A stretch of DNA of 64,000 bases, taken from positions 1,732,616 to 1,796,615 of the forward strand of contig CP054190.1 in the NCBI GenBank assembly GCA_015709575.1, read 5' to 3'. A program made the translations under genes and the position numbers. Below are positions 1,817 to 48,641 of this stretch, piece after piece. The notes below the pieces were generated by a model. It was not told the DNA's origin. It was given only the letters and a program-made list of their open reading frames with translations, and searched no databases. How positions within the stretch are numbered: position 1 is the stretch's first letter; each line of letters opens with the position of its first letter. The DNA is from Planctomycetia bacterium (GTDB lineage: Bacteria; Planctomycetota; Phycisphaerae; UBA1845; Fen-1342).

Positions 1817-2930
1817 ATGGTGATCGCAGATCCGAAAGGCGCACTCGCCGATCTGACCGCCCGCATCCACGCGATGCGGGACTCTCTTTGACATTCCCTC
1901 CAAGTCCTCCCGTATCACTGAGTTGGAATCGAAGATGGCGGAACCCGGTTTCTGGGATAACCCGGAAGCGGCGCAGGCCGTCATTGCGGAGATGAAGGGA
2001 CTGCGCGCAAAGGTCGATCCGGTCGTGGACCTGACGCGTCGTGTGGATGATGCCGCCGTGCTGCTGGAGTTGTCGGCCGAGGATTCGAGCGGGGAGAGCG
2101 CCGCCGAGTTGGATCGTGAGCTGGGGACGCTGGCATCGCGTACCGAGCAAGTGGAACTGCTGACGCTGCTCAGCGGGGAAAACGACGCTCGCAACTGCTT
2201 CCTCTCGATCAACGCGGGCGCCGGCGGCGTGGAGTCGGCGGACTTCGCCGAGATGCTGTTGCGCATGTACCTGATGTACTTCGAGCGCGCCGGCTTCACG
2301 GCGTTTGAGCTGGATCGTCGCGACGGCGATGAGGCCGGGATTCAATCAGTGACGCTGCTGGTGCAGGGTCCATATGCCTACGGCTACCTCTCGTGCGAGG
2401 TAGGCGTGCATCGCCTCGTGCGGATCAGCCCGTTCAACGCCCAGGGCAAGCGGCAGACCAGCTTCGCCGGGGTGGACTGCCTGGCGGAGATCCCCGACCA
2501 GGAAGTGGACATTAAGGAAGTGGACCTGGAGTTCGAGTACTTCCGTCGCGCCAGCGGCGCCGGCGGCCAGAACGTGAACAAGGTCGCCACCGCGGTGCGT
2601 GTGAAGCACCTTCCGACCGGGATCGTGGTCGAATGTGTGAACGAGCGGAGCCAGGCGCAGAACAAGCGGTTGGCGCTGAGCATGCTGCAATCGCGGCTTG
2701 AAAAGATTGAGGAAGCCAAGCGCGATGAGGAAACCGCCAAAAAATACAGCGAGAAGGGCGACATCGCCTGGGGCAACCAGATCCGCAATTACGTTCTGCA
2801 CGGATCAACAATCCATGTGAAGGATCTGCGCACCGGGCTGGCGGTGGGGGACACGCAGCGCGTCCTCAACGGCGACCTACAGCCCTTTATCGACGCCTGC
2901 CTTCGCTTGCGCCTCCGCGGCGGAAAATGA
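1817..2930 (+). CDS. prfB: Peptide chain release factor 2, expressed through a programmed +1 ribosomal frameshift
   Basis: Frame 0 from ATG 1817 reads MVIADPKGALADLTARIHAMRDSL, then hits an in-frame TGA inside CTT TGA C (1886..1892), the canonical RF2 shift site. The +1 frame continues DIPSKSSRITELESKMAEPGFWDN..., which is track ORF 1923..2930. SPF (RISPFNAQGKRQTSF) and GGQ (SGAGGQNVNKV) motifs are present. Confidence 0.93.
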
Positions 2931-2999
2931 TTGATCATCCCAACCGCTCAGGTATTCGGCCAGGCACGTGAATACCTGATTCGATGGCGGGATGCTGTC

Positions 3000-4679
3000 T
3001 CACGGCGCGTCCGCGAGATCGCGCCGCTTGAACACCAGGATGTTGTGGCGCACGATGTCATCGACCTGCACGTAGTTCGCTTCCATCCACGGGCCGATCG
3101 TCACTTCGCTGGTCGGCTTGTCGGGCCGTCGCCCCATGATCCACTCGTAGTCCAGCGCCTCCATGACGATCAGCACCGGCTTGCTTGCCTGTAGCGTGCG
3201 CTCCAGCTCGTCGAGAACGAATCGCGCGCCCGGCCCGACCTGCCCGACCTTCTCCGTCGTGGTGAACCGGCATACGTTGACGCGCTTGGCGTGCAGGTAG
3301 ACCCCCGGCATGTATCCCCAGCACTGGATGCGATCCTCGGGACGCGAATGGCGTTTCACGGATTCGCCGACTTCCTCCCACCAGCGCGGCTGGCCTAACA
3401 CCACCCGTGGAACCCAGACCGACGCTAACGACTGCCATTGCCGCGTGACGGCTTCGGCGGCGAACCAGCCCATGACGACGAACGTCGCCACCACCCAGGC
3501 GCGCTGCTGCATTCGCCGCAGCAGCCGCTGCTCCGTCGTCAGCATGCTGAGCAGGTGCCCGCCCAGCATGATCACCGGCGCGAACGTCGGCACCAGGTAA
3601 TGTCGGAAGGCGTGCGGGCTGAGCAGCGCGCCATACACGGCCAATCCCCACCAGATCACGGTGAATACCGCGTACCGCGGGCACACCGGTCCCAGCCGCC
3701 GCACCTGCGCATCCAGCTCGCGCGGCCGCAGCGTCGGCCGCAGCCGCCAAAGCGCCGCGTGGATCAGTGCCCCGACCGCCAGCAGGTAGGGCAGCGTCAT
3801 CACCAGGATGTTGTCGTTCCAGAGCAGGAACCACGACTTGTAGCTATACGGGAAGCGGCTGTGCCCCGCGGCGAAATAGGAGCGATTGAACGTGAATGTT
3901 GCGAAAATCGCGTCATTCAGCGCCCCCTGGTATGCCAACACGCCCGCCGCGAGCGTGAGCACCAGGGCCACGCCCGCGACCAGCAGGCCGGCCCGCCGAA
4001 CTGCCGCGGTGAGCGAGATGTCGCGAAACAGCGCGCAGAGCACCAGATGAGCGCACATGGCCGCACAGGCCGCCAGGCCGACCTGCTTGAACAGAAACGC
4101 GCACCCTGCGCAAGCACCGGCCGCCAGCCAGCACCAGAGCCGATCCCGCGCCCAGCCGCGCATGTAGAGCGCCACGGCGGTCAGTTCGAACGCGACGAGA
4201 AACGTCTCGGTGCGATTGGTGCCGCCGGTGTAGTAGCCGTGCATCAGGTAGAAGGAGAGCAGCACGGTGCACAGTGCGGCGGCGGTACGGAAGTAGATGG
4301 AAGCGCAGGCGATGAAGAAGCTGACGAAGCTGATCGCCAGTGCCAGCGAGCAGGCCGCCACCACGCCGGCGTAGGACCCGCCGCCGGCGAACATCGCCAG
4401 CGCGTTGATCCAGTAAATGCCCGGAGGCTTGTTATCCCAGACGTCGAGGTAGACGGTCGCGCCGTCAGCGATGCGCCAGCCGTAGTAGGCGAACATCTGG
4501 TCGTCCACCACGTCATCGCGCAGCACGGCGATGTACTGGCAGAGCACGATCAGCGGGATGATGACCGCCGCCGTCACGCCGGCCAGCATCCGCCAACTCG
4601 TCTCGCGCGCGTCGATCAGCACCGCGTCCACCGCGGCATAGCTGATGGCCCGGGACTCGTCGCGGCGGTCGTCGCTCAA
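3000..4679 (-). CDS. Glycosyltransferase family 39 (ArnT/PMT-like) multi-pass membrane protein
   Basis: Track ORF 3000..4880(-). The body reads ...VVDDQMFAYYGWRIADGATVYLDVWDNKPPGIYWINALAMF... with many TM helices. The first ~67 track codons overlap the SOD gene and are Arg-rich. The start is more likely TTG 4679 (GGGGA upstream) or ATG 4589. The stop at 3000 is firm. Confidence 0.65.
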   Translation of the reverse strand: MSDDRRDESRAISYAAVDAVLIDARETSWRMLAGVTAAVIIPLIVLCQYIAVLRDDVVDDQMFAYYGWRIADGATVYLDVWDNKPPGIYWINALAMFAGGGSYAGVVAACSLALAISFVSFFIACASIYFRTAAALCTVLLSFYLMHGYYTGGTNRTETFLVAFELTAVALYMRGWARDRLWCWLAAGACAGCAFLFKQVGLAACAAMCAHLVLCALFRDISLTAAVRRAGLLVAGVALVLTLAAGVLAYQGALNDAIFATFTFNRSYFAAGHSRFPYSYKSWFLLWNDNILVMTLPYLLAVGALIHAALWRLRPTLRPRELDAQVRRLGPVCPRYAVFTVIWWGLAVYGALLSPHAFRHYLVPTFAPVIMLGGHLLSMLTTEQRLLRRMQQRAWVVATFVVMGWFAAEAVTRQWQSLASVWVPRVVLGQPRWWEEVGESVKRHSRPEDRIQCWGYMPGVYLHAKRVNVCRFTTTEKVGQVGPGARFVLDELERTLQASKPVLIVMEALDYEWIMGRRPDKPTSEVTIGPWMEANYVQVDDIVRHNILVFKRRDLADAP

Positions 4680-15560: not shown

Positions 15561-18391
15561 ACGCGACCGAACGAGACGGCGGCGGGACGGAATCGGCGGC
15601 GGCAGTGCTGGATCAACTGTCGGCGCTGGCGCCGGAGCATCGGTCCGCGTGGCTGCGCGCCAGGGGAAACGTAGCGGCCGTCCTGATCGAGCTGGCGGAG
15701 CTGGTCGAGACGCTGGCGGTCAGTGAGGTCAAGGCGGCGCTTCAGGCCGGTGCGCTGATTGAGGCCGTTGCGGCGGAACTGGCCCCCGGAGCGACCGAGG
15801 CGCGGGTTCGTCGCGCATGCGCACAGGCGCTGGCCTATGGCGGGCGCTTCGAGGAGGCACTGCGGACGCTTGACACCGCCGTGTCGGCGGCGGAGCGGGC
15901 CGGCAGCGCCGTCGAGGCCGCCCGCGCCCGAATGGCCAGCATGCACGCGCTGAATCAACTGGGCCGCTATCGTGAATCAATCGCGGCCGGGGATGCGGCG
16001 CGGGAGGGCTTCCTGGCGGCGGGCGAGCCGGCACAGGCCGCGCGCGCGGATGCAAACCTGGGCGCGACCTATCGAATGCTGGATAACCCACAGGGGGCCT
16101 TGCGCCACTATGACCGCGCTCGTCCCATTCTTGCGGCCGATCCGGGCGCAACGGCCCAGCTCGACGCGAATCGCGGTGTGGCGCTGATGGATCTGGACCG
16201 ATTCGACGACGCCGCGCGAGCCTTCGGCAGCGCGCTGCCGGTCTTCGATAGTCGCGGAATGGGCTGGGCCGCGGCCATTGTTGAAGGCAACCTCGCGGAA
16301 TTGCGGGCGCGGCAGGGGAGGATCCAGGCGGCACTCTCCCATTACGAGCGGGCGCGCCGGCATCTTGAATCCGACGCGGCGGACGCCGAAGTAGCGCGCA
16401 TCCTGGGTGAAGAGGGGGATGCGCTCGCGCTGGCGGGCGCGTTGGAGGACGCGCAGTCGAGCTATGAGCGCGCGTTGCCGGCGCTCGAGTCGCACGGTCT
16501 GGTGACGGAAGCGGTGCGCGCGAGACTCGGAATCGCACGGGTGCTGATGCAGCGGCGGCGGCTGCGGGAAGCGGACCTGCTGCTCGCCGACGTCGCGGAG
16601 CGCTACGCGAGCCTGGGCCAGCACGCGGCCCGCGGCCGGGCGCAACTGCTCCGCTCGGAAGCGCGCCTGGCGCAGGGAGACCTAGATACCGCGGCCGAAC
16701 TGGTCAGCGATGCGCTCGCATCCCTGGCGGATCGGCCGACGGAGCGGGCGGCGGCGCTGATCCAGCGGGCCGACCTGCTCCGCAGCCGCGGTGACATCGG
16801 CGCCGCGCGGCGCGACGTGGAGGAGGCGGCCGCCATCGCCGAATCGCTTGACCTGGCGCCCCTGCGGGCCGAGGCGGCGAGGCTGCACGCGGCTCACGCT
16901 CGCGCCGCCGGCGACCCGAGCGCCGCCATCGGCCACCTGCGTGAGTCTGTCCGACAGGTCGAGCGCGTGCGCGGCACGTTGCATGCGCAGCGCTTGCGGT
17001 CGGCGTTCCTCGGGCGGCGGCTGGCGGCGTATGAGGAGCTGGTGCAGGCGCTGCTCGATCGCGGCGGGCCGCGCGATGTGGCGGAGGCCTTTGACGTAAT
17101 CGAGCGTGCGCGCAGCCGCTGGCTGCTCGATCAATTGCAACCGGCCGCCCCAACCGAGCCGAATGGCCTGGAGGGTGCGGAAGACCCGCTTGAGACAGAA
17201 CTGGCGTCGGTGCAATCCGAGCTGAACGGCCTGTACAGCCGCGTGGCTGACGGCGACGGCGGCGCCGCCGCGGGGGACCGGCGCGAGGACATTCGCCGCT
17301 GCGAGCAGCGCCTCGCGCAACTGGAGAGCCGCATCGCCAACGCGCGCGGCGCGGTGAGCCTTTTTGCCCCGCCGGCCCCGGTGTCAGACGTGCAGCGACG
17401 CCTGGCGGCGGGGGAGCGCCTGATCCAGTTCTTCACCGCCGGCGACGAACTGCTGGCGCTGGTGCTGTCGCCGGACGAACTGACCGTACATCGTCGCCTG
17501 GGCGTGAACTCCCAGATCGCCGACCGGGTGCAACAGGCCGTGTTCCAGGTGCGGCGGGCGCTGCGCCCGGGCGCCACGGACGGTTCGCGCGGCGAGCGCC
17601 TGCTGACGGACACGAAGCGCGCCGCCGCAGCGCTGTACGACGCGCTGATCGCGCCGCTCGAGCCATCGCTGCGCGGGGCGTCGCGCCTGATCATCGCGCC
17701 GCACGGATCGCTGCACGCGCTGCCATTCGCGGCGCTATGGGACGGCGCGGCGTGGCTGGTGGAGCGCTTCGAGATTGAGCACGTCATCAGCGGCAGCTTG
17801 TTCCGCTCGATGGTGCGCGAGGAGTCCGGCGCGAGCCGGGCGCTGGTGGTGGGGGTGGCGGATGATCGCGCGCCGCAGATCGCCGCCGAAGCGCGGCAGG
17901 TAGCGTCGCGATTCAGCAACGCCACGTTGCTGCTGGGTTCAGAGGCGACGGTTGCAAACGTGATGCGGACCGCCCCGCTGGCGCAGGTGCTGCACCTCGC
18001 GGCGCACGGGCACTTTTCGAGCGACTCGCCGCTGAGCAGCGGGCTGCGCCTGGCGGATCGCTGGCTCACCGTGAGCGATATCTGCCGGATGAAGCTCGAC
18101 GCGCGCCTGACCGTGCTGAGTGGGTGCGAGACGGGTCGCAGCGTGGTGGCAGCCGGAGACGACCTGCTCGGGCTGCTGCGCGGGTTCGTCGCCGGCGGCG
18201 CTCGGCGGCTGCTGGCCAGCCAGTGGACCGTGCCGGATGCGGCCACGCTGAGACTGATGGATGCGTTCTATGATTCCTGGTGCGGCGGAATGCCGGCGGC
18301 CGCAGCCCTGCGGCGCGGCCAGCTCGCGCTGCTGGCCGAACAACCTCATCCGGCGGCGTGGGCCGGATTCATTCTCATAGGTGCTGCATGA
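15557..18391 (+). CDS. TPR-repeat + CHAT-domain (caspase-like) protease, cytoplasmic
   Basis: The N-terminal ~600 aa are Ala/Leu/Arg-rich TPR-like helical repeats. The C-terminus reads LIIAPHGSLHALPFAAL...VLHLAAHGHF...LTVLSGCETG...LASQWTVPDAATLRLMDAFY, the CHAT His/Cys dyad pattern. No signal peptide is present. Confidence 0.85.
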   Translation: MNATERDGGGTESAAAVLDQLSALAPEHRSAWLRARGNVAAVLIELAELVETLAVSEVKAALQAGALIEAVAAELAPGATEARVRRACAQALAYGGRFEEALRTLDTAVSAAERAGSAVEAARARMASMHALNQLGRYRESIAAGDAAREGFLAAGEPAQAARADANLGATYRMLDNPQGALRHYDRARPILAADPGATAQLDANRGVALMDLDRFDDAARAFGSALPVFDSRGMGWAAAIVEGNLAELRARQGRIQAALSHYERARRHLESDAADAEVARILGEEGDALALAGALEDAQSSYERALPALESHGLVTEAVRARLGIARVLMQRRRLREADLLLADVAERYASLGQHAARGRAQLLRSEARLAQGDLDTAAELVSDALASLADRPTERAAALIQRADLLRSRGDIGAARRDVEEAAAIAESLDLAPLRAEAARLHAAHARAAGDPSAAIGHLRESVRQVERVRGTLHAQRLRSAFLGRRLAAYEELVQALLDRGGPRDVAEAFDVIERARSRWLLDQLQPAAPTEPNGLEGAEDPLETELASVQSELNGLYSRVADGDGGAAAGDRREDIRRCEQRLAQLESRIANARGAVSLFAPPAPVSDVQRRLAAGERLIQFFTAGDELLALVLSPDELTVHRRLGVNSQIADRVQQAVFQVRRALRPGATDGSRGERLLTDTKRAAAALYDALIAPLEPSLRGASRLIIAPHGSLHALPFAALWDGAAWLVERFEIEHVISGSLFRSMVREESGASRALVVGVADDRAPQIAAEARQVASRFSNATLLLGSEATVANVMRTAPLAQVLHLAAHGHFSSDSPLSSGLRLADRWLTVSDICRMKLDARLTVLSGCETGRSVVAAGDDLLGLLRGFVAGGARRLLASQWTVPDAATLRLMDAFYDSWCGGMPAAAALRRGQLALLAEQPHPAAWAGFILIGAA

Positions 18392-20862
18392 ATCTGGCAG
18401 CCGGACGTACGGGCCTCGTCGTCGTCACGCTGTGCGCGGCGACGTTCGTCCCGCTGACAGCGGTGGGCCAGCCGATCGATCCGATTGTTCCCGACCAGGT
18501 GATGCTGCGTCTGGCTCCCGCTTTTTCTGTCCAGCAGTTCAACGCCCAGCATGGCAGCACGACGCTGCGAAGCGTCGCCTCCCGGCACATCTATCTCGTG
18601 CAGACGCCGCCCGGGACGAACTCCGCCGCGTTTGAGTCGCTGGTGAGAAACGCGCCGGGCGTGGTCTGGGCGGAGGCGAACTATCTCGGCGATGCGCCGG
18701 AGGGCACCGCCCGGCAGTTCTATTTCAATCTTGCCGACGACCCCGGCGTGTTTCTGTCGCAGCCGGCGTTCGACCAGGTGAACCTGGCCGAAGCGCGGAT
18801 GACGGTCGGGGGCGCGGGCGTGATGGTCGCCGTGATCGACTCCGGCGTGGATGCTTTTCACCCGGCGCTGCAGGGACGGATCGCGCCCGGCGGATATGAC
18901 TTTCTGCTGCGGGCGCCGACGGCGCCGGACATCGGCGATGGCACAGACAGCGACGGTGACGGACTGGTGGATGAAATGGTGGGTCACGGAACGCACGTGG
19001 CGGCGCTGGTGGCCGCGGTAGCGCCGCAGGCGATGATCCTGCCGTTGCGCGTGCTGGACGGCGACGGCAACACCGACAATTTCACCGTCGGCGAGGCGAT
19101 GTTCTTTGCGATCGACGCCGGCGCGGACGTGATCAATCTCAGCCTAGGCTCGACGTACGAATCCAAGATCGTCGAAGACGCCGTGGCCGAAGCGCTCTCG
19201 CGCGGCGTGGTGCTGGTCGCTGCCAGCGGCAACAACAACGCCCTGCAGCAGGAGTTCCCCGCCGCGATCGGCGGCGTCATTTCGGTGGCGGCGGTGGACG
19301 GGCAGGACCACAAGACCTCGTTCAGCAACTTCGGAAATTCGATCGCGCTTACCGCGCCCGGCGTTGCGATTCGCTCGGCCATTCCGGCCGCCCAGTATGC
19401 CGATTGGGACGGCACCAGCATGGCGACGCCGCTGGTCTCCGGCGCCGCGGCGCTGATCCTGGAGCGAAACGCGCATTGGACCGCGAACGGTTTGCGGGCG
19501 GCACAGGTGCGCCTGATGCTGCAGCGCTCGGCCGCGAGCGTCGATGTCGAGAACCCCGGCTTCGACGGGCTGCTGGGAGCGGGTCGGCTCGACATCGGTG
19601 CGGCAGTCGCGGCGCAGGCGCTGTTTGAGACCGGCGCGACAATCCCGGTCGGCGTGGGTGTGAGCGCACTGACAGCGGCGGATGTGCTCGGTGACCGCCG
19701 CCTCGATCTCCTCGCGATTCGGCCGGCCGCGCCGCAACTGGCCGTGATGGCCGGACGGCTGATGGGCGGGTTTGATTCGCCGGTGTACTTCAACGCAGGG
19801 GCTGCGCCCGATGCGCTGCTGACTGCGGACCTCAACGGGGACGGTCGCGTTGATGTCGCGACGGTGAACAACAACAGCAACAGTGTCAGCGTATTGTTGA
19901 ACTCCGCTGCGGGGTTCCTGCCGCCGGTCGTGCTTTCGGTCGGGCAGGGGCCGGTCGCGGCGGAAGCGGCCGACATCGACGGCGACGGTGACCTCGACCT
20001 GGTCATCGCGCTGGAGGATGCCGCCCGCGTCGCGATCCTGCGGAACGACGGCGGCAACTTCGCTCTGCTCAACGCCGGCAACGCCGGGACGCGGCCGGTC
20101 GCGTTGGCCGTCGCCGATCTTTCGGGCGATTCATTGCCGGATGTTGTTGTGGCCGATCGGCGCGGCGACCGTGTGATGATGCTGAGAAACCTCGGCTCGG
20201 GCGTTTTCGCTGCGGCAGTGCCAATCGCCGTGGGAGCGGACCCGCGTGCGGTCGCCGCCGCCGACGTGGATGGCGACGGTCAGACGGATGTACTGGTCGG
20301 GTGCCAGGACGGCGATACGCTGCAGGTGCTGCGGAATGTCGGCGGCGTACTGTCGATCGCGGGCACGTGGCAGCTCCCGCTGGGGGCGGACCCCGAGCAG
20401 ATCCGAATCGCCGACGTGAATTGCAACGGCATTCCGGACGTGGTCCTGAGCGGACTGGACGGGGCGGCGCTGCTGATGGTGATTGAGAACAAGTCACGAC
20501 CGGGCGTGTTCACGCTCGGTTCGCCGAATATTCTCTCGTCGGGCGCGCTGATCTCGGGTTGGGCGACGGCCGATCTCGACACCGACGGTGATTCGGATTT
20601 CGCCGTGTCTGACGCGGTCTCCGGCACTGTGTCCGTGCTGAAAAACATGACCTGCACGCCCCGCGTGCTCGGTGATCTGAATTGCGACGGGCGGCTGGAC
20701 TACTTCGATATTGACCCGTTGGTCACTTCGCTCGTCAACCTCGATGCATACCTGGCCATCTATCCTGGCTGCGATCCGACCGTGGCGGACATCGACCTTG
20801 ACGGTGCGGTCACGCTGTTTGATATCGAGCCATTCCTCGATCTGCTGTTCGCCGGCATCTGA
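18388..20862 (+). CDS. Secreted subtilisin-like (S8) serine protease with FG-GAP/VCBS repeats and C-terminal dockerin-like module
   Basis: ATG 18388 overlaps the CHAT stop (ATGA). The signal peptide reads MNLAAGRTGLVVVTLCAATFVPLTAVG. The catalytic triad is VAVIDSGVD / GHGTHVAALV / GTSMATPLVSGAAAL. Repeats include DLNGDGRVDVATV, ADIDGDGDLDLVIA and ADVDGDGQTDVLVG. The tail is GDLNCDGRLDYFDIDPLV...DIDLDGAVTLFDIEPFL. Confidence 0.88.
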   Translation: MNLAAGRTGLVVVTLCAATFVPLTAVGQPIDPIVPDQVMLRLAPAFSVQQFNAQHGSTTLRSVASRHIYLVQTPPGTNSAAFESLVRNAPGVVWAEANYLGDAPEGTARQFYFNLADDPGVFLSQPAFDQVNLAEARMTVGGAGVMVAVIDSGVDAFHPALQGRIAPGGYDFLLRAPTAPDIGDGTDSDGDGLVDEMVGHGTHVAALVAAVAPQAMILPLRVLDGDGNTDNFTVGEAMFFAIDAGADVINLSLGSTYESKIVEDAVAEALSRGVVLVAASGNNNALQQEFPAAIGGVISVAAVDGQDHKTSFSNFGNSIALTAPGVAIRSAIPAAQYADWDGTSMATPLVSGAAALILERNAHWTANGLRAAQVRLMLQRSAASVDVENPGFDGLLGAGRLDIGAAVAAQALFETGATIPVGVGVSALTAADVLGDRRLDLLAIRPAAPQLAVMAGRLMGGFDSPVYFNAGAAPDALLTADLNGDGRVDVATVNNNSNSVSVLLNSAAGFLPPVVLSVGQGPVAAEAADIDGDGDLDLVIALEDAARVAILRNDGGNFALLNAGNAGTRPVALAVADLSGDSLPDVVVADRRGDRVMMLRNLGSGVFAAAVPIAVGADPRAVAAADVDGDGQTDVLVGCQDGDTLQVLRNVGGVLSIAGTWQLPLGADPEQIRIADVNCNGIPDVVLSGLDGAALLMVIENKSRPGVFTLGSPNILSSGALISGWATADLDTDGDSDFAVSDAVSGTVSVLKNMTCTPRVLGDLNCDGRLDYFDIDPLVTSLVNLDAYLAIYPGCDPTVADIDLDGAVTLFDIEPFLDLLFAGI

Positions 20863-32728: not shown

Positions 32729-35700
32729 ATGGGTATCGGGTCGAAGATTACGCGCTGTTGCATGACAGCCGTGCTGGCCACATTTTGTGGCACAGCGCTG
32801 GCCGCCTCGGACCTGGTGATCAGCCAGGCCTACGGCGGCGGCGGGAACACCGGTGCGACGTACAACCGCGATTTCATCGAGATTTTCAATCGCGGTGCCT
32901 CGCCGATCGATCTTGCCGGCAAGTCCGTGCAGTATGCGTCGGCGACGGGCACGTCCTGGTCGAAGTTTGACCTGCCGACGTTCACCCTTCAGCCGGGTCA
33001 GTACTTCCTCGTTGGCGGTGCGAGCGGTGCCAACGGCGCCGCGCTGCCGACGGTGGACGGTTCGAGCAGCATCAACCTGGCGGCTGGTGCGGGCAAGGTC
33101 GCACTGGTGGACAGCACGACGGCCCTGACCGGCAACGGCTGTCCGATCGCAGCGCCGATCATCGACTATTTGGGATTCGGTGCCACGGCGAACTGCTCGG
33201 AGGGCACGACCACACCGACGATCAGCGGCAACGTCACTGCGAACATCCGCAATGATGACGGTTGCACGGACACGGATGACAACGGCGCGGACTTTTCGCA
33301 GGGCACACCGACCCCGCGCAACTCCTCCTCGACGCTGAATCCGTGCGGTGGAGACCCGACCGGCGCCTGCTGCGATTCGAACACCAACACCTGCTCGCTG
33401 ACTACCGCAGCGGCGTGCGTCGGCGCAGGGCTGAGCTATCTCGGCGACGGTGTGAGCTGCGGGTCGAACGCGTGCGGCTTTCCGACCGGCGCTTGCTGCA
33501 ACGGCGGCGTCTGCACGATCAAGAACAACCAGGAGTGCACGGCCGGCAGCGGCACGTACCAGGGCAACGGCTCGACCTGCACGCCGAATCCGTGCGTCAG
33601 CTGCATCAACATCGCGGCGGCCCGCGCGGCGGCCCCGGGGTCGTATGTGAAGCTGTGCAACGTCGTGATCGCCTCGACCGAGGACCTGATCAATTCGGCC
33701 ACCAGCAAGAGCTTCACGCTTCAGGACGCCAGCGGCGGCATCACCGTCTTCGGCACCAACGCCGTGATCGACGGCATCCTGCTCGGACGCACTGCCGGAG
33801 ATCGCATTGATCTTGAAGGCACGACCGGCATCTTCAATGGCCTGTCGCAGATGATAGCGCCGTTCGGGCCGGTCACGTTCGTGGACAGCCCCGGCGTTCC
33901 CGCCGCGCAGCTTGTCACCGGCGCGGACTTCGAAGAAGGCGGCCCGGGTGAGTCGTTCGAGAGCGAGATCGTGGAGGTCCGCTGCGTGACGTTCAGCACC
34001 GGCGGCACCTTCACGGGCAACGCGAACTTCAACGCGACCGACTCCAACGGCGATCCGGTCGTCGTGCGCATCTCACGGACCGATCAGGACATCGCCGGCA
34101 CGCCGATCCCGAGCGGTCCGGTGGATATCGTTGGCGTCTTTACGCAGAACGACACCACCGACCCGCGTGACGGTGGGTATCAGCTCCTACCGCGCACGCT
34201 GGCGGACTTCACGGATCCCAGCCCGAACTGCCCGCCCGCCCCGACCGGCGCCTGCTGCAACGGCCGCGTCTGCTCGGTCGTTTCAGCGGCGGTGTGCACG
34301 ACCGGCGGCGGCACGTACCAGGGCAATGACTCGGTCTGCTCACCGAATCCCTGCCTGCCGTGCGACACGACCGCCTCGGCCGAGGCGCTGCCGATCGGCA
34401 CGCGCGTCAAGCTGTGCGACATCGTGATTTCGAGCACGACCGACCTGATCAACAGCACGGCCAACAAGCATTTCCACGCTCAGGACTCGGCCGGCGGCAT
34501 CACGATCTTCGGCACGAATGCCGTGATCGACCCGCTGCTGGCGCTGGCCGGCGTGGGTGACCGCATCACGATCGAGGGCACGACCGGCACGTTCAACGGG
34601 CTGTTCCAGCTTCAGGCGCCGTTCGTGTTGATCAGCGTCACGGCGGACACGGCTCCGACGCCGGACGTGGTGACCGGCGCGGACTTCCAGGAAGGCGCGG
34701 CCAATGCGGAGTTCGAGGAGAGCCGGCTGGTTCGCCTCAACTGTGCGACGTTCGTGCAGACGGGCTTGTTCGCGGGCGTGACGACCTACCAGGTCAACAC
34801 CGGTGCAGGCCAGGTGAACGTCCGTGTTGCGACGACCGCTCTGGATCTTGTTAACCAGGCGATCCCGACCGATCCGGTGGACATCATCGGCATCTTCTCG
34901 CAGCTCGACGCGACCGATCCGCGCGACGGCGGCTACGAGCTGCTGGTGCGCTTCTACTCGGATCTGACCGGCCCGACCTGCCCGACCACCGGCGCCTGCT
35001 GTGTCGGTGTGACCTGCACGCCAGATGTCACCAGCGGCGACTGCACAACGCTCGGCGGCGTGTTCCAGGGGCTGGGCACCGGCTGCTCGCCGAACCCGTG
35101 CGTGCTGCCGACCGGTGCTTGCTGCCTGGCCGGAGTCTGCACGATTGACGAAGAGGCGGACTGCTACGCCGCGGGTGCGACGTACCTCGGCAATAACACG
35201 ACCTGCCCGGGTAGCTGCCCGAATCCGGCGGCTCAGCCGGTGCAGGCGCTGGACCTTGCCTGGGGCAGCAACAGCTCCGTCGGCGGCTCATTGCACCATG
35301 TGCGCAGCGGTTCGGTGATCGGTCGCTGGTCGGTGCGCTTCATGCAGTCGGTGGAGTTTGACAACACCGGCGGCGGCCTCGGCCACGCTCCGAACGGCAA
35401 CCTGCTCGGTGCGGATTTTGGCGATTCCTGCGGCGGCGCACCGGATGACGGCGGTGAGCTGTGGAACATCGCGACGGATGGCTCGGACCGCGCCGAGCGG
35501 CTGTTCCGCGTGAACGGGTTTGAGGGCACTGATTGCGCCCGTACCGTGGGCCTGTCGGTGAATCCGTCGAACAACCTCGTAGCGATGATGGGCCAGACGA
35601 ACGGCACGCTCTATATCCTGAACTACAACGCGGGTGCGAACCCGGGTACGGGAACGGGTGCGAGCGCGTCGGCGAATCTGTCCGTCACGACCGTCGGCCA

Positions 35701-36658
35701 GTCGAACATTTCGCAGGGCACGGCGTGGTATGACGACAGCAACGTGCTGGTGGCCGCCCAGAATCCGGGCGACCCGAGCCAGAACTCGCTGGTCAACGTC
35801 ACGACCGGCGGAACGATCACGGACCTGGAGTTCTTCCCGGCCCGTGGCACCGCCGGCCAGGTGACGGACGTTGAGTACAACCCCGCAATCTCGCCGTACG
35901 TGTACTACATGCAGTCGTCCTTCAGCACGCTGCAGACGCCCAACTCGCAGTCCACGCTCTACGTGCTCGATCTCTCGCAGCCGGCCGGCTCGCGCGTGAT
36001 CAAGACCGTGATCCTGGACAACTCGCTGCAAACCAGCCGCGAGATCGCGCTGGGCTCCGATCGCCGGCTGTACATCTCGCAGTTCGGCGGCAGCACCGCG
36101 CCGCAGCCGAAGGTGTACGTCGACGTGCTGAACCTCGACACCGACAACGACAACGACATCGACGCCGCCGACATTGCCTCGCTGACGGATGACAGCTCGG
36201 TCGATTACTACATCGTTCCGGGCGGTGCGGATTCGTCGTTCAACGGCGTGGACGTGGCGAACGGTGTGGTGGCGGCGCCGATTCAGGCGTGCTGCTTCCG
36301 CAACGGCAGTTGCGATATGCTGACGCCTGCCGCGTGCCTCGGGCTGCTGGGTACGCCGCAAGGCCCCGGCACGAGCTGCACACCGAATGTCTGCACGGCG
36401 ATTTGCCTGGTCGGCGATGCGAACTGCGATGGTGTTGTCAACAACTTCGACATCGATCCGTTCGTGATCGGAATTGTGAGCGGCTCTGAGACCCTCGCCC
36501 CGGTGCCCTACCTCAACCTGGGTGGCACGCAGCAGTGCTGGAACATTCGCACCTGCTGGGGTGACATCAGCCGCAACGGCCTGTTCAACAACTTCGACAT
36601 CGATCCGTTCGTGGCGTGCATTGTGGATCTGCCGCCGTCGGGCGATCCGTGTCCGTAG
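32729..36658 (+). CDS. Giant secreted multidomain protein: lamin-tail domain, two tandem ~200-aa modules, six six-Cys modules, a beta-rich region and C-terminal dockerin-like module
   Basis: ATG 32729 follows GAGGAG at 5 nt. The signal reads MGIGSKITRCCMTAVLATFCGTALA. The LTD reads DLVISQAYGGGGNTGATYNRDFIEIFNRGASPIDLAGKSVQYASATGTSW...AGAGKVALV, as in ExeM/NucH-type extracellular nucleases. The tail reads GDANCDGVVNNFDIDPFV...NGLFNNFDIDPFV. Confidence 0.85.
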   Translation: MGIGSKITRCCMTAVLATFCGTALAASDLVISQAYGGGGNTGATYNRDFIEIFNRGASPIDLAGKSVQYASATGTSWSKFDLPTFTLQPGQYFLVGGASGANGAALPTVDGSSSINLAAGAGKVALVDSTTALTGNGCPIAAPIIDYLGFGATANCSEGTTTPTISGNVTANIRNDDGCTDTDDNGADFSQGTPTPRNSSSTLNPCGGDPTGACCDSNTNTCSLTTAAACVGAGLSYLGDGVSCGSNACGFPTGACCNGGVCTIKNNQECTAGSGTYQGNGSTCTPNPCVSCINIAAARAAAPGSYVKLCNVVIASTEDLINSATSKSFTLQDASGGITVFGTNAVIDGILLGRTAGDRIDLEGTTGIFNGLSQMIAPFGPVTFVDSPGVPAAQLVTGADFEEGGPGESFESEIVEVRCVTFSTGGTFTGNANFNATDSNGDPVVVRISRTDQDIAGTPIPSGPVDIVGVFTQNDTTDPRDGGYQLLPRTLADFTDPSPNCPPAPTGACCNGRVCSVVSAAVCTTGGGTYQGNDSVCSPNPCLPCDTTASAEALPIGTRVKLCDIVISSTTDLINSTANKHFHAQDSAGGITIFGTNAVIDPLLALAGVGDRITIEGTTGTFNGLFQLQAPFVLISVTADTAPTPDVVTGADFQEGAANAEFEESRLVRLNCATFVQTGLFAGVTTYQVNTGAGQVNVRVATTALDLVNQAIPTDPVDIIGIFSQLDATDPRDGGYELLVRFYSDLTGPTCPTTGACCVGVTCTPDVTSGDCTTLGGVFQGLGTGCSPNPCVLPTGACCLAGVCTIDEEADCYAAGATYLGNNTTCPGSCPNPAAQPVQALDLAWGSNSSVGGSLHHVRSGSVIGRWSVRFMQSVEFDNTGGGLGHAPNGNLLGADFGDSCGGAPDDGGELWNIATDGSDRAERLFRVNGFEGTDCARTVGLSVNPSNNLVAMMGQTNGTLYILNYNAGANPGTGTGASASANLSVTTVGQSNISQGTAWYDDSNVLVAAQNPGDPSQNSLVNVTTGGTITDLEFFPARGTAGQVTDVEYNPAISPYVYYMQSSFSTLQTPNSQSTLYVLDLSQPAGSRVIKTVILDNSLQTSREIALGSDRRLYISQFGGSTAPQPKVYVDVLNLDTDNDNDIDAADIASLTDDSSVDYYIVPGGADSSFNGVDVANGVVAAPIQACCFRNGSCDMLTPAACLGLLGTPQGPGTSCTPNVCTAICLVGDANCDGVVNNFDIDPFVIGIVSGSETLAPVPYLNLGGTQQCWNIRTCWGDISRNGLFNNFDIDPFVACIVDLPPSGDPCP

Positions 36659-36832: not shown

Positions 36833-37357
36833 TTACCGGCTCTCGACGGCCGTCTCCGCCGGTGAAAACCCGGCCGCGCGCAAGACGTCGCACAGCCCGC
36901 GCAGGTCGCTTTCGTCGAACGCTCCGACTTCGTGGCTGTCCACGTCCAGCACCCCCCAGCAGGCTCCCAAATCGTCCAGCAGCGGAACCACGACCTCGGC
37001 CCGGTCTCGCGGGTCGCAGGCCACATACGCGCCCCCCAGCTCGGCTGTGTCCCGGATGATCTGCGGCCGGCGAGTCCGAAACCCCGCCCCGCAGACGCCG
37101 TGCAGGCCGATCGGGGAGCAGGCCGGCTTGTTTCGCATCGGCCCCAGCACCAGTTCGTCTGCGCCCTCGTGCAGATAAAACCCTACCCACGAGACGCCAC
37201 CGTCGGCCAGCCCGTGCCAGAGGGCGTCGGCGACGATGCGCATCCGCGCTGTACGATCGCCGGTCGCAGTGGCGACGCGACGTGCGATGTCAGCGTAGTC
37301 CCGGGTCGGCAGGCAGCGCTCCAGGTTACCGGGCGGCATGAAAAAACTTGGCTCCAC
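36833..37357 (-). CDS. GAF-domain protein, free methionine-(R)-sulfoxide reductase-like
   Basis: VSWVGFYLHEGADELVLGPMRNKPACSPIGLHGVCGAGF...VACDPRDRAEVVVPLL...GVLDVDSHEVGAFDESD is the typical fRMsr/YebR GAF pattern. Confidence 0.75.
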   Translation of the reverse strand: MEPSFFMPPGNLERCLPTRDYADIARRVATATGDRTARMRIVADALWHGLADGGVSWVGFYLHEGADELVLGPMRNKPACSPIGLHGVCGAGFRTRRPQIIRDTAELGGAYVACDPRDRAEVVVPLLDDLGACWGVLDVDSHEVGAFDESDLRGLCDVLRAAGFSPAETAVESR

Positions 37358-37408
37358 CGCGGTCGCTTGATAGGATCAGAGGGGCGATTCTCGCGGGAGG
37401 ACGGTTGG

Positions 37409-37735: not shown

Positions 37736-37801
37736 GTCACGATTGCGGGCCCGCAGCGTCGGGCTGGGCCGCGGCGGTCCGCCGGCCGTTCGGTCGGGCG
37801 A

Positions 37802-38644: not shown

Positions 38645-38664
38645 CGGCTACCCTCCGGTTTCGC

Positions 38665-40110: not shown

Positions 40111-40186
40111 GAAATCTCCTTGAAGCGTGCCAGCACCACGACAATTGGCTGATTTCCAGCGACCGGATATATATACGTCCAAGTGA

Positions 40187-40198
40187 TTGATAAATCAA
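40187..40198. promoter_or_regulatory. AT-rich palindrome TTGATAAATCAA in the divergent heme-oxygenase / kinase promoter region (weakly Fur-box-like)
   Basis: It is a perfect 5-2-5 inverted repeat. It is flanked by GATATATATAC, in the most AT-rich patch of this intergenic region. The resemblance to the GATAAT-type Fur hexamers is only partial. Confidence 0.3.
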
Positions 40199-47081: not shown

Positions 47082-48641
47082 TCACGGGCAGCCGTTGTTC
47101 AGCACGCACTCAATGAACGGGTCGATGTCGAAGTTGTTCGCAAATCCGTCGTCGTTGATGTCCGCCAGCATTCGATCGCAGTGCGGGAAGACCTGCGCGT
47201 AGCCGTCGGGGTTCAGAATCGCCGCCACGAACGCGTCGATGTCGAAGTTGTTCACCATGCCGTCACAGTTCAGGTCACCCAGCGCGAAACCCGCCGCCAC
47301 GTTGCCGACCAGGGTTACCACCCGGGACGGCTGATCCGGCGCATTGGAGCTGATGACGAGCGTTGCATTTCTCGGGCCGGGCGTGGCGGTGTCCATCGTG
47401 ACGGTGTGAGAATTGCTCCCACCGCCGGCGGATTCGTTGAACGATCCGCCGGGCGCGCTGAACCCCGATCCGGCCGAGAGCGTGTAGTTCAGCACGGCGA
47501 TTCCGTTGTTCGTCCACAGCGATGTATCGCCGCTGTTCGTGACCGTCAGTGGCAGTTGCGCGACCGCTCCGACATTCACCGTGCCGAAGTCGAGCAGCAG
47601 CGGCGAGTCCACCCGCGGCGGCACGCGCAGATCCAGATACACGGGCAGGTGTCCGCTGGGGGCCGCGGCCTGTTGCAAGGCCAGCGCAATCGCGGGCCCG
47701 ACCATCGTGTTGGTCGTCGTGTTCAGCGGGTTGTTGTAACTAGAGCCGTCATTGCCCCACGAGCGATACGAGTGATTGGGATCGTCCCATGTCGTCGTGC
47801 TGTAGGCCAGCGCCGGGTTGCCGATGTAGTCAAACCCGGTTCCGTCCACGAGATTTTCTGAAAGCAGGATCTGGTCGTGCCGGTCATCCATCTCTCCGCT
47901 GCTGGCCGGGTCCTGTGTGTGGACGTAACGAAATGCGAAGGAGTTGTTCCACGAGCCGGGCGTATTGATCGGATCAATGAATCGCCGCAGGTACCCCGCC
48001 AGCACGGCCACCAGCCGTTGATACTCCGCGGACGCTGAGTTTTGGATGTTCAGATCTCCGGCCAGCAGGTAATGCCGCCCGGCCGGAAGCCCCTCGGCGT
48101 CGTCGCGGATGCGCGTGGCCTCCGTCAGCCGGCGCAGATCATCATCGGATCCGGCTTCCTGCGCCTTCATGTGCGAGCTATAGCAGGAGAGGATCGCGCC
48201 ATCGGAGGTGTATCCGGCCAGACGTACGTCGTAGCGCATGATGTGTCGCGGCTGATTCGGCGACGCCCCGCCTGTCGATACCAGCACCGTGGCGAGCAAC
48301 GTGGCCCTGGAGGTGCGGTAGAAGAACGCATTGTCCGTGTCGGGACCGTTTACAAACGGCGCCGCCGCCCAGTCGCCCGGGCTGCCGGGAGCTCCGTTGA
48401 GCAGGTTCACGAACTCCGTCACCGCCGGAGCGCTGATAAATTCCTGCCCCACGATGATGTCAGGGCGCATCGACCGGCCCAGGTAGCTGCCGTAGAAGAT
48501 CGTCTGAAACTCGCTGACCCGCCCGCCGTTGTAGTTGGTCACGTTGTATTCGCAGATCCGCAGCTGCGCCGTCGCCGTTCCGCAAATCCCGGCGATAGCG
48601 GCGATCCAGGCGGCCGTGCAGCGGAACAGACGATCCATCAC
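47082..48641 (-). CDS. Secreted endonuclease/exonuclease/phosphatase (EEP) family protein with Ig-like middle domain and C-terminal dockerin-like module
   Basis: The signal reads MMDRLFRCTAAWIAAIAGICGTATA. EEP blocks are LRICEYNVTNY...PDIIVGQEF...LLAGDLNIQ...DDRHDQILLS. The choice-of-anchor/ASH-like segment reads LLDFGTVNVGAVAQLPLTVTNSGDTSL. The tail reads GDLNCDGMVNNFDIDAFV...DDGFANNFDIDPFI. Confidence 0.85.
   Translation of the reverse strand: MMDRLFRCTAAWIAAIAGICGTATAQLRICEYNVTNYNGGRVSEFQTIFYGSYLGRSMRPDIIVGQEFISAPAVTEFVNLLNGAPGSPGDWAAAPFVNGPDTDNAFFYRTSRATLLATVLVSTGGASPNQPRHIMRYDVRLAGYTSDGAILSCYSSHMKAQEAGSDDDLRRLTEATRIRDDAEGLPAGRHYLLAGDLNIQNSASAEYQRLVAVLAGYLRRFIDPINTPGSWNNSFAFRYVHTQDPASSGEMDDRHDQILLSENLVDGTGFDYIGNPALAYSTTTWDDPNHSYRSWGNDGSSYNNPLNTTTNTMVGPAIALALQQAAAPSGHLPVYLDLRVPPRVDSPLLLDFGTVNVGAVAQLPLTVTNSGDTSLWTNNGIAVLNYTLSAGSGFSAPGGSFNESAGGGSNSHTVTMDTATPGPRNATLVISSNAPDQPSRVVTLVGNVAAGFALGDLNCDGMVNNFDIDAFVAAILNPDGYAQVFPHCDRMLADINDDGFANNFDIDPFIECVLNNGCP

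What the first reader, a model, noticed from the sequence alone, without database searches (positions are those of the whole stretch)
36407..36658. Shared C-terminal twin 'NxFDIDPF' dockerin-like module on three unrelated secreted enzymes
Three signal-peptide proteins end with the same ~65-80-aa module:
- S8 protease (20665..20862): GDLNCDGRLDYFDIDPLV...ADIDLDGAVTLFDIEPFL.
- Giant LTD protein (36407..36658): GDANCDGVVNNFDIDPFV...GDISRNGLFNNFDIDPFV.
- EEP enzyme (47082..47285, minus strand): GDLNCDGMVNNFDIDAFV...ADINDDGFANNFDIDPFI.

Each has two D-x-[ND]-x-[DN]-G Ca-loop-like segments, each followed by FDI[DE]P[FL]. This is a duplicated EF-hand/dockerin-type layout (established for clostridial dockerins). 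The module is always at the extreme C-terminus.

Inference: it is a common anchoring or sorting module. It may dock a protease, a nucleic-acid-binding protein and a nuclease/phosphatase onto one cell-surface scaffold, or mark them for one export/attachment route. No cohesin-like partner is evident in the window.
Basis: partly seen in the sequence, partly recalled or inferred. Interest (0 to 1): 0.6.

Follow-up and report, generated by a model that had tools for sequence, protein, structure and literature searches.

The report
Orphan dockerin tag on exported proteins
The three matching protein tails are real and are three of about 157 copies of a calcium-loop "dockerin" plug that this planctomycete puts on its exported proteins, although the genome has no recognisable socket (cohesin) for it, so what the plug binds is an open and testable question.

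Summary
The three tails are exactly as quoted. They belong to about 161 copies in about 157 ORFs of this 3.89-Mb Phycisphaerales genome. Of these, 129 lie within 15 residues of the C-terminus, and most carriers have signal-peptide-like N-termini.

The module is a divergent type-I dockerin:
- Both 12-residue Ca loops keep their ligand positions.
- AlphaFold models are confident (pLDDT 96 and 88).
- The best PDB matches by sequence profile and by fold are cellulosomal dockerins.
- It adds an invariant N-F-D-I-D-P-F motif in both halves and co-varying cysteines that imply disulfide staples.

Standard models miss it. Pfam Dockerin_1 is below threshold for all three window copies. NCBIfam's "GC-type dockerin" never reaches its cut-off here.

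No cohesin was found with Pfam or with a profile built from relatives' cohesins, and cohesin presence in relatives does not track module count.

Across relatives each genome uses one flavour. In the same family, 19 genomes carry 35–163 NNFDIDPF copies and almost no GC-type copies. The 6 without NNFDIDPF carry GC-type copies instead. Orthologues of the same enzyme carry different flavours, and paralogous bodies swap this tail for PEP-CTERM.

Best reading: a Ca-dependent docking or retention tag for one lineage-specific, still unknown receptor. It is a new variant of a known kind.

The parts
36404..36655 (+). Type B (long-spacer, six-Cys) dockerin-like module at the C-terminus of the LTD protein: C-LVGDANCDG..NNFDIDPFV - Cys-rich spacer (..GGTQQCWNIRTCW) - GDISRNG..NNFDIDPFVACIVDLPPSGDPCP. 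The stop codon is at 36656-36658.
   Evidence: Translation. Alignment with 26 paralogues shows invariant C6, C43, C49 and C70 and near-invariant C81. Upstream Cys. AF2 pLDDT 88. Foldseek top hits are dockerins.
20671..20859 (+). Type A (short-spacer) dockerin-like module at the C-terminus of the S8 subtilase/FG-GAP protein. This copy is divergent (YFDIDPL / LFDIEPF) and has no terminal Cys pair.
   Evidence: Translation. HMM i-E 5.8e-31 as seed and 1.1e-18 under the iterated profile. Pfam Dockerin_1 gives 13.8 bits, below threshold.
47085..47279 (-). Type A dockerin-like module with a terminal C...GCP staple, at the C-terminus of the EEP / choice-of-anchor-D enzyme.
   Evidence: Translation. 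Pfam Dockerin_1 gives 22.2-22.6 bits against a cut-off of 22.9. AF2 pLDDT 96.4. Foldseek top 19 hits are all dockerins, TM up to 0.78.
18388..20862 (+). Carrier 1: secreted subtilase (Peptidase_S8, residues 178-435 of the ORF) plus six FG-GAP-like repeats plus the module. The start is uncertain: the ORF opens at 18280 and Met37 is at 18388.
32729..36658 (+). Carrier 2: secreted lamin-tail-domain protein with two DUF5689-like regions, six 6-Cys 'GACC' units and the module.
47082..48638 (-). Carrier 3: secreted 518-aa enzyme with an EEP-family body (PF03372 in orthologues), a choice-of-anchor D domain and the module.

Best explanation
The three tails are copies of a lineage-specific branch of the type-I dockerin fold. 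It is a 60-85-residue domain with two Ca loops, stapled by disulfides.

Anatomy: each half is a 12-residue EF-hand-type loop (D-x-N-x-D-G-x-h-N-N-F-D) running into a helix that begins I-D-P-F-V.

This Phycisphaerales genome attaches the module to about 157 Sec-exported proteins: proteases, nucleases, glycosidases, cytochromes, lectins, RHS toxins and giant adhesins.

Proposed mechanism, with shown and inferred steps marked:
1. The proteins are exported (inferred from signal-peptide-like N-termini).
2. The module folds outside the cytoplasm around two Ca2+ ions, and disulfides lock it (inferred from ligand conservation and Cys covariation).
3. The invariant N-F / D-P-F surface, duplicated in both halves as in dual-binding-mode dockerins, plugs into one common receptor. 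This retains or collects the cargo at the cell surface (inferred).

The receptor is not a sequence-recognisable cohesin. It appears to be lineage-specific and co-evolving, because each genome uses a single flavour of the tail and related genomes use another one (NCBIfam GC-type).
For: Identity as a dockerin:
- Loop ligand positions are near-invariant in 145 copies: D3 1.00, N5 0.86, D7 0.97, D14 1.00, D41 0.99, N/D43 0.93, D45 0.84, D52 1.00.
- Pfam Dockerin_1 hits 45 of 58 modules.
- The top PDB profile hits are dockerins, E 2e-4.
- AF2 pLDDT is 96.4 and 88. Foldseek returns dockerins from cohesin complexes, TM 0.6-0.79.

Tag on exported proteins:
- 161 copies exist, 129 of them within 15 aa of the C-terminus.
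- 124 of 150 carriers have a signal-peptide-like N-terminus by my own crude heuristic.
- Cargo is very diverse.

Binding module rather than cleaved signal:
- It also occurs right after the signal peptide, at the N-terminus of RHS proteins, internally and in tandem pairs.
- It has no hydrophobic anchor segment.

Common receptor:
- N12 0.88, F13 0.94, F51 0.97 and P/F at helix positions 3-4 are conserved in both halves across all paralogues and in metagenomic relatives. The equivalent positions 10-11 are the specificity positions of cellulosomal dockerins (established knowledge; Pages 1997, Carvalho 2003).

Lineage-specific co-evolution:
- In the same family, 19 genomes have 35-163 copies and 0-2 GC-type hits. 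The 6 genomes with 4 or fewer copies have 4-33 GC-type hits. Fisher P = 5.6e-6.
- 69 of 120 orthologues of the EEP enzyme carry this tail. The others carry other twin-loop tails, several of which pass NF041540.

Anchor-equivalent role:
- Homologous bodies carry either PEP-CTERM or this tail, including adjacent paralogues.
- The carrier has a 'choice-of-anchor D' domain.

Disulfides:
- C59 and a tail Cys co-occur in 69/70 copies, against 12/75 when C59 is absent (P = 2e-27).
- C6 comes with a spacer Cys in 110/111 copies.
Against: - No receptor was found. There is no Pfam cohesin at E<=1 and no hit with a cohesin profile built from 20 relatives' cohesins (best E 4.7).
- Cohesin presence in relatives is unrelated to module count: 9/21 against 8/20 genomes.
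- Four candidate receptors failed: PEP-CTERM neighbours, the 634036 family, untagged repeat proteins and the 6-Cys unit.
- Ca binding, disulfides, surface exposure of the N-F motif and surface localisation are all inferred. I had no model coordinates to measure exposure.
- The conserved F/I/F residues could be core rather than surface.
- The genome comparison counts related genomes, so the P values overstate independence.
- The signal-peptide call is a home-made heuristic.
Confidence: 0.6

Rival explanations
1. Export or sorting tag. The folded module is recognised in the periplasm by a secretion or attachment machine (for example a type II-like system or an unknown outer-membrane translocon), as the T9SS C-terminal domain is. 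It may be removed afterwards. On this reading it addresses cargo rather than docking it.
For: - The position is overwhelmingly at the extreme C-terminus.
- There is one flavour per genome on 100-160 unrelated exported proteins, as for the T9SS CTD or PEP-CTERM.
- It is interchangeable with PEP-CTERM on homologous bodies.
- No cohesin-type receptor is present.
Against: - 24 of 161 copies are more than 50 residues from the C-terminus: directly after the signal peptide, at the N-terminus of RHS proteins, internal, or in tandem pairs. That is unusual for processed C-terminal signals.
- The fold is that of a known protein-binding module.
- No candidate machine was identified. I did not search for one.
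Confidence: 0.2
2. Classical cohesin-dockerin system ('planctosome'). A true cohesin-fold receptor exists in this genome but is too divergent for sequence profiles to find.
For: - Some relatives do have Pfam cohesins (17 of 41 genomes at E<=0.01).
- A cohesin/dockerin 'planctosome' was proposed for a Phycisphaerae family (PMC6461901).
- Earlier notes of this scan report cohesin-fold modules in other Phycisphaerae that Pfam misses (unchecked leads).
Against: - There is no hit in this genome or its congener with Pfam Cohesin.
- A lineage-specific cohesin profile run with all filters off also finds nothing.
- Six of the genomes with 150 or more modules have no cohesin, while a genome with no modules has three.
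- The tail-swapping PEP-CTERM family shows no cohesin similarity (hhalign probability 1.3%).
Confidence: 0.12
3. Matrix- or glycan-binding, or purely stabilising, Ca module. On this reading the tail binds exopolysaccharide, LPS or peptidoglycan, or merely gives Ca-dependent folding and stability outside the cell. No protein receptor is involved.
For: - No protein receptor was found.
- Ca-loop and disulfide features fit an extracellular stability element.
Against: - A stability element would not need an invariant N-F-D-I-D-P-F face in both halves of 150 paralogues.
- It would also not need wholesale flavour replacement between sister lineages.
- A glycan ligand is not excluded by these points.
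Confidence: 0.08

Closest known systems
Type I dockerin (Pfam PF00404), e.g. C. thermocellum Xyn10B dockerin (1OHZ/2CCL) and C. acetobutylicum CaDoc0917 (6KG9/6KGC)
   Same: - Two tandem 12-residue EF-hand-type Ca loops, each followed by a helix, with a short linker helix between them.
- About 60-70 residues, C-terminal on secreted enzymes, with near-symmetric halves.
- These are the best profile and fold matches.
   Different: - There is no cohesin in the genome.
- The cargo is not cellulolytic.
- The N-F-D-I-D-P-F motif replaces the variable S/T-containing recognition positions.
- It has a Cys in loop 1 and one to three inferred disulfides.
- It is present in about 157 copies per 3.9-Mb genome.
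- The three window copies score below Pfam's threshold.
NCBIfam NF041540, 'GC-type dockerin domain-anchored protein' (domain model)
   Same: - It occupies the same C-terminal position on orthologues of the same EEP enzyme in other Phycisphaerae.
- It has twin Ca loops.
- It often ends in G-C(-P).
- It is expanded in sister genomes (up to 57 hits).
- It is interpreted by curators as an anchoring domain.
   Different: - The model does not recognise the NNFDIDPF flavour. The best score in this genome is 23 bits against a cut-off of 29, and a consensus-like copy gets no hit.
- The two flavours are mutually exclusive among genomes of the family.
- The helix motifs differ (for example DFFYFLD or DLSDLxxLL against FDIDPFV).
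'Planctosome' hypothesis for freshwater Phycisphaerae (Nemodlikiaceae), Andrei et al. 2019, ISME J, PMC6461901
   Same: - A non-cellulolytic use of dockerin modules on peptidases in Phycisphaerae.
- LTD-containing proteins are involved.
   Different: - That model rests on cohesin-bearing anchor and adaptor proteins. Here no cohesin exists.
- Here the tag is on about 157 proteins of every kind.
C-terminal sorting or anchoring tags: PEP-CTERM/exosortase and the T9SS C-terminal domain
   Same: - A single tag is shared by tens to hundreds of unrelated exported proteins.
- It is mostly at the extreme C-terminus.
- It is interchangeable with PEP-CTERM on homologous bodies in this genome.
   Different: - It has no transmembrane helix or basic tail.
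- It is a helical Ca-binding fold rather than a beta-sandwich.
- It also occurs N-terminally, internally and in tandem.

Membership tests
Type I dockerin (Pfam PF00404 Dockerin_1) | Two 12-residue EF-hand-like Ca-binding loops with acidic or amide ligands at positions 1, 3, 5, 9 and 12 | tested here: met
   Column frequencies over 145 copies: D3 1.00, N5 0.86, D7 0.97, N/T/D11 0.98, D14 1.00. The second loop: D41 0.99, N/D43 0.93, D45 0.84, D52 1.00.
Type I dockerin (Pfam PF00404 Dockerin_1) | Dockerin fold (two loop-helix 'F-hand' motifs packed antiparallel) | tested here: met
   AF2 pLDDT 96.4 and 88. The Foldseek top hits are all dockerins, TM 0.6-0.79, probability up to 0.99, although E-values are weak for so small a domain. 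These are predicted, not solved, structures.
Type I dockerin (Pfam PF00404 Dockerin_1) | Score at or above Pfam's gathering threshold (22.9 bits) | tested here: inconclusive
   The window copies give 22.2-22.6 bits (EEP), 13.8 bits (S8) and no hit (LTD). Among 58 isolated modules, 45 hit at E<0.1 and the best is 3e-9. Only 4 of 60 full-length carriers reach E<1e-3.
Type I dockerin (Pfam PF00404 Dockerin_1) | Cognate cohesin encoded in the same genome | tested here: not met
   PF00963 gives no match at E<=1. A profile of 20 cohesins from relatives, run with --max, gives best E 4.7. This is a sequence-level test only.
Type I dockerin (Pfam PF00404 Dockerin_1) | Ca2+-dependent binding to a partner | not testable with these tools
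   Needs biochemistry.
NCBIfam NF041540 GC-type dockerin domain | HMM score at or above 29 bits | tested here: not met
   The best score in the whole genome is 23 bits. P0002 scores 16.2 bits. A consensus-like type A copy gets no hit at E<=1.
NCBIfam NF041540 GC-type dockerin domain | C-terminal twin-loop domain on exported proteins, at the same position in orthologues | tested here: met
   Orthologues of the EEP enzyme carry NF041540-positive tails (29.5-78.7 bits) where this genome has the NNFDIDPF tail.
Cellulosome / 'planctosome' system | Scaffoldin with cohesins, plus dockerin-tagged enzymes | tested here: not met
   There is no cohesin. Repeat-rich untagged proteins are RTX/PKD, kelch, WD40 and DUF11 types or the 6-Cys repeat protein.
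Processed C-terminal sorting signals (PEP-CTERM, LPXTG, GlyGly-CTERM) | Short motif plus a hydrophobic helix plus a basic tail, strictly C-terminal | tested here: not met
   The sequences show no hydrophobic helix. 24 of 161 copies lie more than 50 residues from the C-terminus. True PEP-CTERM tails exist separately on about 31 other proteins.

The most novel reading that the evidence does not exclude
Phycisphaerales may run a cohesin-independent 'addressing' system. Each lineage stamps 100-160 exoproteins, about 1 gene in 20-25, with one dockerin flavour that fits a single co-evolving receptor of an unknown fold or chemistry. On this reading, whole proteomes have switched flavour en bloc between sister genera. 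That would be a new kind of surface-display or retention system, built from the dockerin half alone. The 19-versus-6 flavour split within one family gives a ready-made phylogenetic-profiling handle for finding the receptor.
Probability: 0.3. Interest if true: 0.75.

Novelty: new variant of a known kind. Interest (0 to 1): 0.5.

Why it matters
- Dockerins are understood almost entirely through cohesin pairing in cellulosomes. Here the dockerin half alone is one of the commonest domains of a genome. It sits on proteases, nucleases, cytochromes, toxins and adhesins, with no cohesin in sight.
- The profile finds 6,528 cluster representatives in public data at E<=1e-10.
- Current annotation calls most carriers 'hypothetical', because the Pfam and NCBIfam models miss this flavour.
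- Identifying the receptor would show how planctomycetes of this group organise their exoproteome.
- It could also yield a new orthogonal Ca-dependent plug-and-socket pair for protein engineering.
- More modestly, a dedicated HMM for this flavour would improve annotation of thousands of proteins.

Tried and rejected
1. Cohesin partner. Pfam PF00963 gives nothing in the genome. A profile from 20 cohesins of relatives gives nothing: the first attempt, with flanks, gave only spurious flank hits, and the trimmed profile gave best E 4.7. Cohesin presence in 40 relatives is unrelated to module count.

2. PEP-CTERM proteins as membrane-anchored receptors. There are about 31 of them. Their adjacency to tagged genes is not significant: 13 observed against 8.9 expected within 3 kb, P = 0.08. 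Their bodies have no Pfam domain.

3. The PEP-CTERM family 634036/635221/3466076/1526214, which has a dockerin-tagged paralogue. hhalign against cohesins gives probability 1.3%. It has no PDB or earlier-note match. It is present in only 6 of 21 module-rich genomes. Rejected as the common receptor.

4. Untagged repeat-rich proteins as scaffoldins. The first self-BLAST failed for a technical reason. The chunk method then found RTX/PKD, kelch, WD40, DUF11 and housekeeping proteins.

5. The 6-Cys 'GACC' unit as partner. It is widespread, occurs in GC-type genomes and is absent from one module-rich genome. It is not flavour-specific.

6. Membership in NF041540. Rejected on score.

7. Literature. 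No paper on 'GC-type dockerin', or on dockerin together with PEP-CTERM, was found. Peer et al. 2009 is not held.

8. The idea that the shared tail links the LTD protein and the EEP enzyme into a split ExeM/NucH-like nuclease. About 157 proteins share the tail, so sharing it is not specific evidence.
Full report
OBSERVATION

The three tails exist exactly as quoted, and each ends at a stop codon. Each closes a long ORF with a signal-peptide-like N-terminus:
- A Peptidase_S8 + FG-GAP protein.
- A lamin-tail-domain protein with two DUF5689-like regions.
- A 518-aa protein with a choice-of-anchor D domain. Its orthologues carry Pfam PF03372 and are named endonuclease/exonuclease/phosphatase hydrolases.

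The second loop of the LTD tail is D-I-S-R-N-G, with Ser at position 3. The long version of the module starts one residue earlier, with a conserved Cys at window 36404-36406.

SCALE

The window lies in a single-contig genome of 3.887 Mb and 67% G+C.
- A profile made from the three tails alone finds 155 domains at i-E < 1e-5 in six-frame ORFs.
- After three iterations there are 161 domains in 157 ORFs. Of these, 91 end within 5 residues of the ORF end, 38 within 6-15, 8 within 16-50, and 24 further away.
- By a crude heuristic of my own, 124 of 150 carriers have a signal-peptide-like N-terminus.
- A Pfam census of 60 carriers shows very diverse cargo. It includes subtilase, M12 peptidases, GH57, CBM53, phytase-like, GSDH, MtrC-like and c7 cytochromes, RHS, C-type lectin, BNR, NHL, and HYR/Ig domains. 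Many carriers have no Pfam domain.
- Assuming roughly 3,200-3,500 genes for a genome of this size (an inference), about one gene in 20-25 carries the tag.

SUBTYPES

- Type A, about 84 copies: short spacer, GDxNCDGxxNNFDIDPFVLAL..YPxC..GDxNxDGxxNNFDIDPFV. It ends either in ..LLxG or in xCxxxxGCP.
- Type B, about 39 copies, including the finding's own tail: a longer spacer with ..CWxxRxCW.. and a tail ACIxxxPPxGxPCP.
- Type C, about 18 copies: free of cysteines.
- Type D, about 12 copies: internal, with a different Cys pattern, followed by an acidic linker and a conserved C-terminal HFWxTIAxxRAYFG motif.

WHAT IT IS

The module is a divergent type-I dockerin.
- The Ca-ligand positions 1, 3, 5, 9 and 12 of both 12-residue loops are essentially invariant over 145 copies.
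- Pfam Dockerin_1 hits 45 of 58 isolated modules at E<0.1, best 3e-9.
- A profile search of PDB sequences returns dockerins first: 6KG9, 4FL4, 1OHZ and 2CCL, best E 2e-4.
- AlphaFold2 with paralogue alignments gives pLDDT 96.4 for type A (the window's EEP tail) and 88 for type B (the finding's LTD tail).
- Foldseek against the PDB returns only dockerins at the top, TM 0.6-0.79.

Standard annotation nevertheless misses it.
- The three window copies score 22.2-22.6 bits, 13.8 bits and nothing, against a threshold of 22.9.
- Only 4 of 60 full-length carriers reach E<1e-3.
- Public records name the EEP orthologues 'hypothetical protein' or 'choice-of-anchor D domain-containing protein'.

WHAT IS SPECIAL ABOUT THIS BRANCH

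1. The motif N-N-F-D-I-D-P-F-V is conserved in both halves (N12 0.88, F13 0.94, I15 0.88, D16 0.93, F18 0.97; N50 0.87, F51 0.97, I53 0.91, D54 0.95, F56 0.95). Loop positions 10-11, here N-F, are the specificity positions of cellulosomal dockerins. Near-identical halves there go with the dual binding mode.

2. The cysteines co-vary.
   - Cys59 and a later tail Cys occur together in 69 of 70 copies, against 12 of 75 when Cys59 is absent (Fisher P = 2e-27).
   - The loop-1 Cys comes with at least one spacer Cys in 110 of 111 copies.
   - Most type B copies add a Cys 3 or 6-7 residues upstream, giving six cysteines.
   - I infer one to three disulfide staples, which fits an extracytoplasmic domain. 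I could not check distances, because model coordinates are not returned.

NO COHESIN

- Pfam Cohesin finds nothing in this genome at E<=1.
- Prompted by earlier notes of this scan reporting divergent cohesins in other Phycisphaerae, I fetched 20 Pfam-positive cohesins from relatives. I built a lineage-specific profile from them and searched all six-frame ORFs with filters off. The best E was 4.7, in tiny ORFs.
- Among 41 genomes, cohesin hits occur in 9 of 21 module-rich and 8 of 20 module-poor genomes (Fisher P = 1.0, Spearman rho -0.06).
- The own genus (161 and 163 copies) and four other genomes with 150 or more copies have no cohesin.

DISTRIBUTION AND FLAVOUR SWITCHING

- The organism is a Phycisphaerales planctomycete. 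The closest named genome is the activated-sludge MAG Kalu_18-Q3-R12-55_MAXAC.193, whose EEP orthologue is 91% identical.
- In the same family, 19 of 25 genomes carry 35-163 copies. A second family of the order carries 40-49. The other nine families carry 0-3.
- None of 150 genomes sampled across the rest of the phylum has a copy at E<=1e-12. Only 41 candidates per genome were scored in that search.
- Globally the profile finds 13,791 cluster representatives at E<=1e-3 and 6,528 at E<=1e-10. Most of these are again C-terminal.
- NCBIfam NF041540, 'GC-type dockerin domain-anchored protein', never passes its cut-off in this genome (best 23 bits against 29).
- NF041540 does hit the six same-family genomes that lack the NNFDIDPF module (4-33 hits) and one genome of another family (57 hits). 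It finds 0-2 in the 21 module-rich genomes. Within the family the split is 0/19 against 6/6 (Fisher P = 5.6e-6, rho -0.71). The genomes are related, so these P values overstate independence.
- The same switch shows at the level of one gene. Of 120 homologues of the EEP enzyme, 69 carry the NNFDIDPF tail. The others carry other twin-loop tails, such as DVDLSDLxxLL..GTTCP, SDVLDFLDFLDAF..GC, DFFYFLDxF..GC and NSSDISAFLSDWL. Five of the nine tested pass NF041540 (29.5-78.7 bits), while a consensus-like NNFDIDPF tail gets no hit at all.
- Orthologues labelled Armatimonadota and other phyla match the enzyme body only.

One flavour per genome on more than 100 paralogues, with a different flavour on orthologues in sister lineages, is what a single co-evolving binding partner per lineage would produce. 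This is an inference.

ANCHOR-EQUIVALENT POSITION

- The genome also has about 31 proteins with true PEP-CTERM tails.
- Homologous bodies occur with either tail:
  - -774279..775154 (PEP-CTERM) against -2571..3677 (dockerin-like): 38% identity over 259 aa.
  - The adjacent pair -2634964..2635701 / -2634075..2634842: 40% over 119 aa.
  - +775564..776334 / +777419..778438.
- Together with the choice-of-anchor D domain in the EEP carrier, this places the module in the slot of a surface-anchoring or sorting tail.
- Against a processed linear signal: the module has no hydrophobic segment. It also occurs directly after the signal peptide (two esterase-like proteins, one HYR-type protein), at the N-terminus of four RHS/YD-repeat ORFs, internally (type D) and as tandem pairs. 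A folded binding domain can work in all of these positions.

MECHANISM

My best reading (about 0.6) is a Ca-dependent, disulfide-stapled docking tag. It retains or gathers a large and diverse exoproteome on one lineage-specific receptor that is not a recognisable cohesin.

Rivals:
- An export or attachment address read by a secretion machine (about 0.2).
- A true cohesin too divergent to detect (about 0.12).
- A glycan- or matrix-binding or merely stabilising module (about 0.08).

What is shown: sequence anatomy, fold prediction, homology, copy number, position, distribution, flavour complementarity, tail swaps and absence of detectable cohesin.

What is inferred: export, Ca binding, disulfides, surface exposure of the N-F motif, the existence of a receptor, and surface localisation.

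RECEPTOR HUNT (NEGATIVE)

- PEP-CTERM genes are not significantly closer to tagged genes than chance.
- The PEP-CTERM family with a tagged paralogue shows no cohesin similarity and occurs in only 6 of 21 rich genomes.
- Untagged repeat-rich proteins are RTX/PKD, kelch, WD40, DUF11 or housekeeping proteins.
- A 910-aa secreted protein made of 17 tandem 6-Cys 'GACC' units looked scaffold-like. However, the unit occurs in 34 of 41 relatives regardless of flavour.

COMPARISON AND NOVELTY

- The domain belongs to the dockerin superfamily. It is the functional counterpart of NCBIfam's GC-type dockerin domain, but neither curated model captures it.
- The 'planctosome' proposal (PMC6461901) invokes cohesin-dockerin pairs in another Phycisphaerae family, which does not apply here.
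- I found no paper describing this expansion, its flavour switching or its orphan status. Subscription literature, including Peer et al. 2009, was not readable.
- I rate it a new variant of a known kind, with moderate interest. The open question of what the tag binds is sharp and directly testable, and the 19-versus-6 split within one family is a practical handle for answering it.

Noticed in passing
window 33362-33613, 34247-34372, 34991-35239, 36284-36403; also G000:C1:2295662-2298391(-): A 40-50-residue six-Cys unit, GACCxxxxxxxCxxxTxxxCxxxGGxYxGxGxxCxxxxC(xPP), unknown to Pfam and NCBIfam. It occurs six times in the window's LTD protein, follows or precedes type B tails in several proteins, and makes up nearly all of a 910-aa secreted protein (17 tandem units). 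There are 136 hits in this genome, and it is present in 34 of 41 relatives.
   Followed up: partly
G000:C1:1283137-1298850 (outside the window): Four RHS/YD-repeat ORFs carry the dockerin-like module near their N-terminus instead of the C-terminus. This suggests the tag can replace the usual N-terminal trafficking domain of polymorphic toxins.
   Followed up: no
G000:C1, e.g. 36993-40315, 56784-60121, 556835-560956, 1647738-1652897, 2232132-2235565, 3716372-3719757: About ten repeated gene pairs. A 640-690-aa protein has an internal type D module, an acidic linker and a C-terminal HFWxTIAxxRAYFG motif. It is followed by one or two ~500-aa proteins with the Cys-free type C tail. Neither body has a Pfam domain among the commonest census hits.
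   Followed up: no
G000:C1:634036-636105, 3466076-3466933, 1526214-1528769, 1068219-1069622: A PEP-CTERM-anchored ~220-aa domain family with no known relatives. It occurs only in the six genomes with the highest module counts (6 of 41). Its one dockerin-tagged paralogue is interrupted by a TGA and looks like a pseudogene.
   Followed up: partly
G081 and G108 (same class, genus g41; handles): Two small (3.3-3.4 Mb), near-complete genomes of the same class gave more than 400 first-look candidates for the module profile but no real match. This may be another, unmodelled twin-loop flavour in very high copy number.
   Followed up: no
L126, L134, L138, L143, L146, L154-L160: Close orthologues (42-57% identity) of the EEP enzyme body occur in Armatimonadota MAGs (Fimbriimonadaceae, Chthonomonadaceae) without the tail. 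This hints at transfer of the enzyme between phyla, with lineage-specific tails added afterwards.
   Followed up: no
The TIGR02595 scan of the whole genome at E<=0.1 did not list this place, so it is at best an atypical PEP-CTERM.
   Followed up: partly
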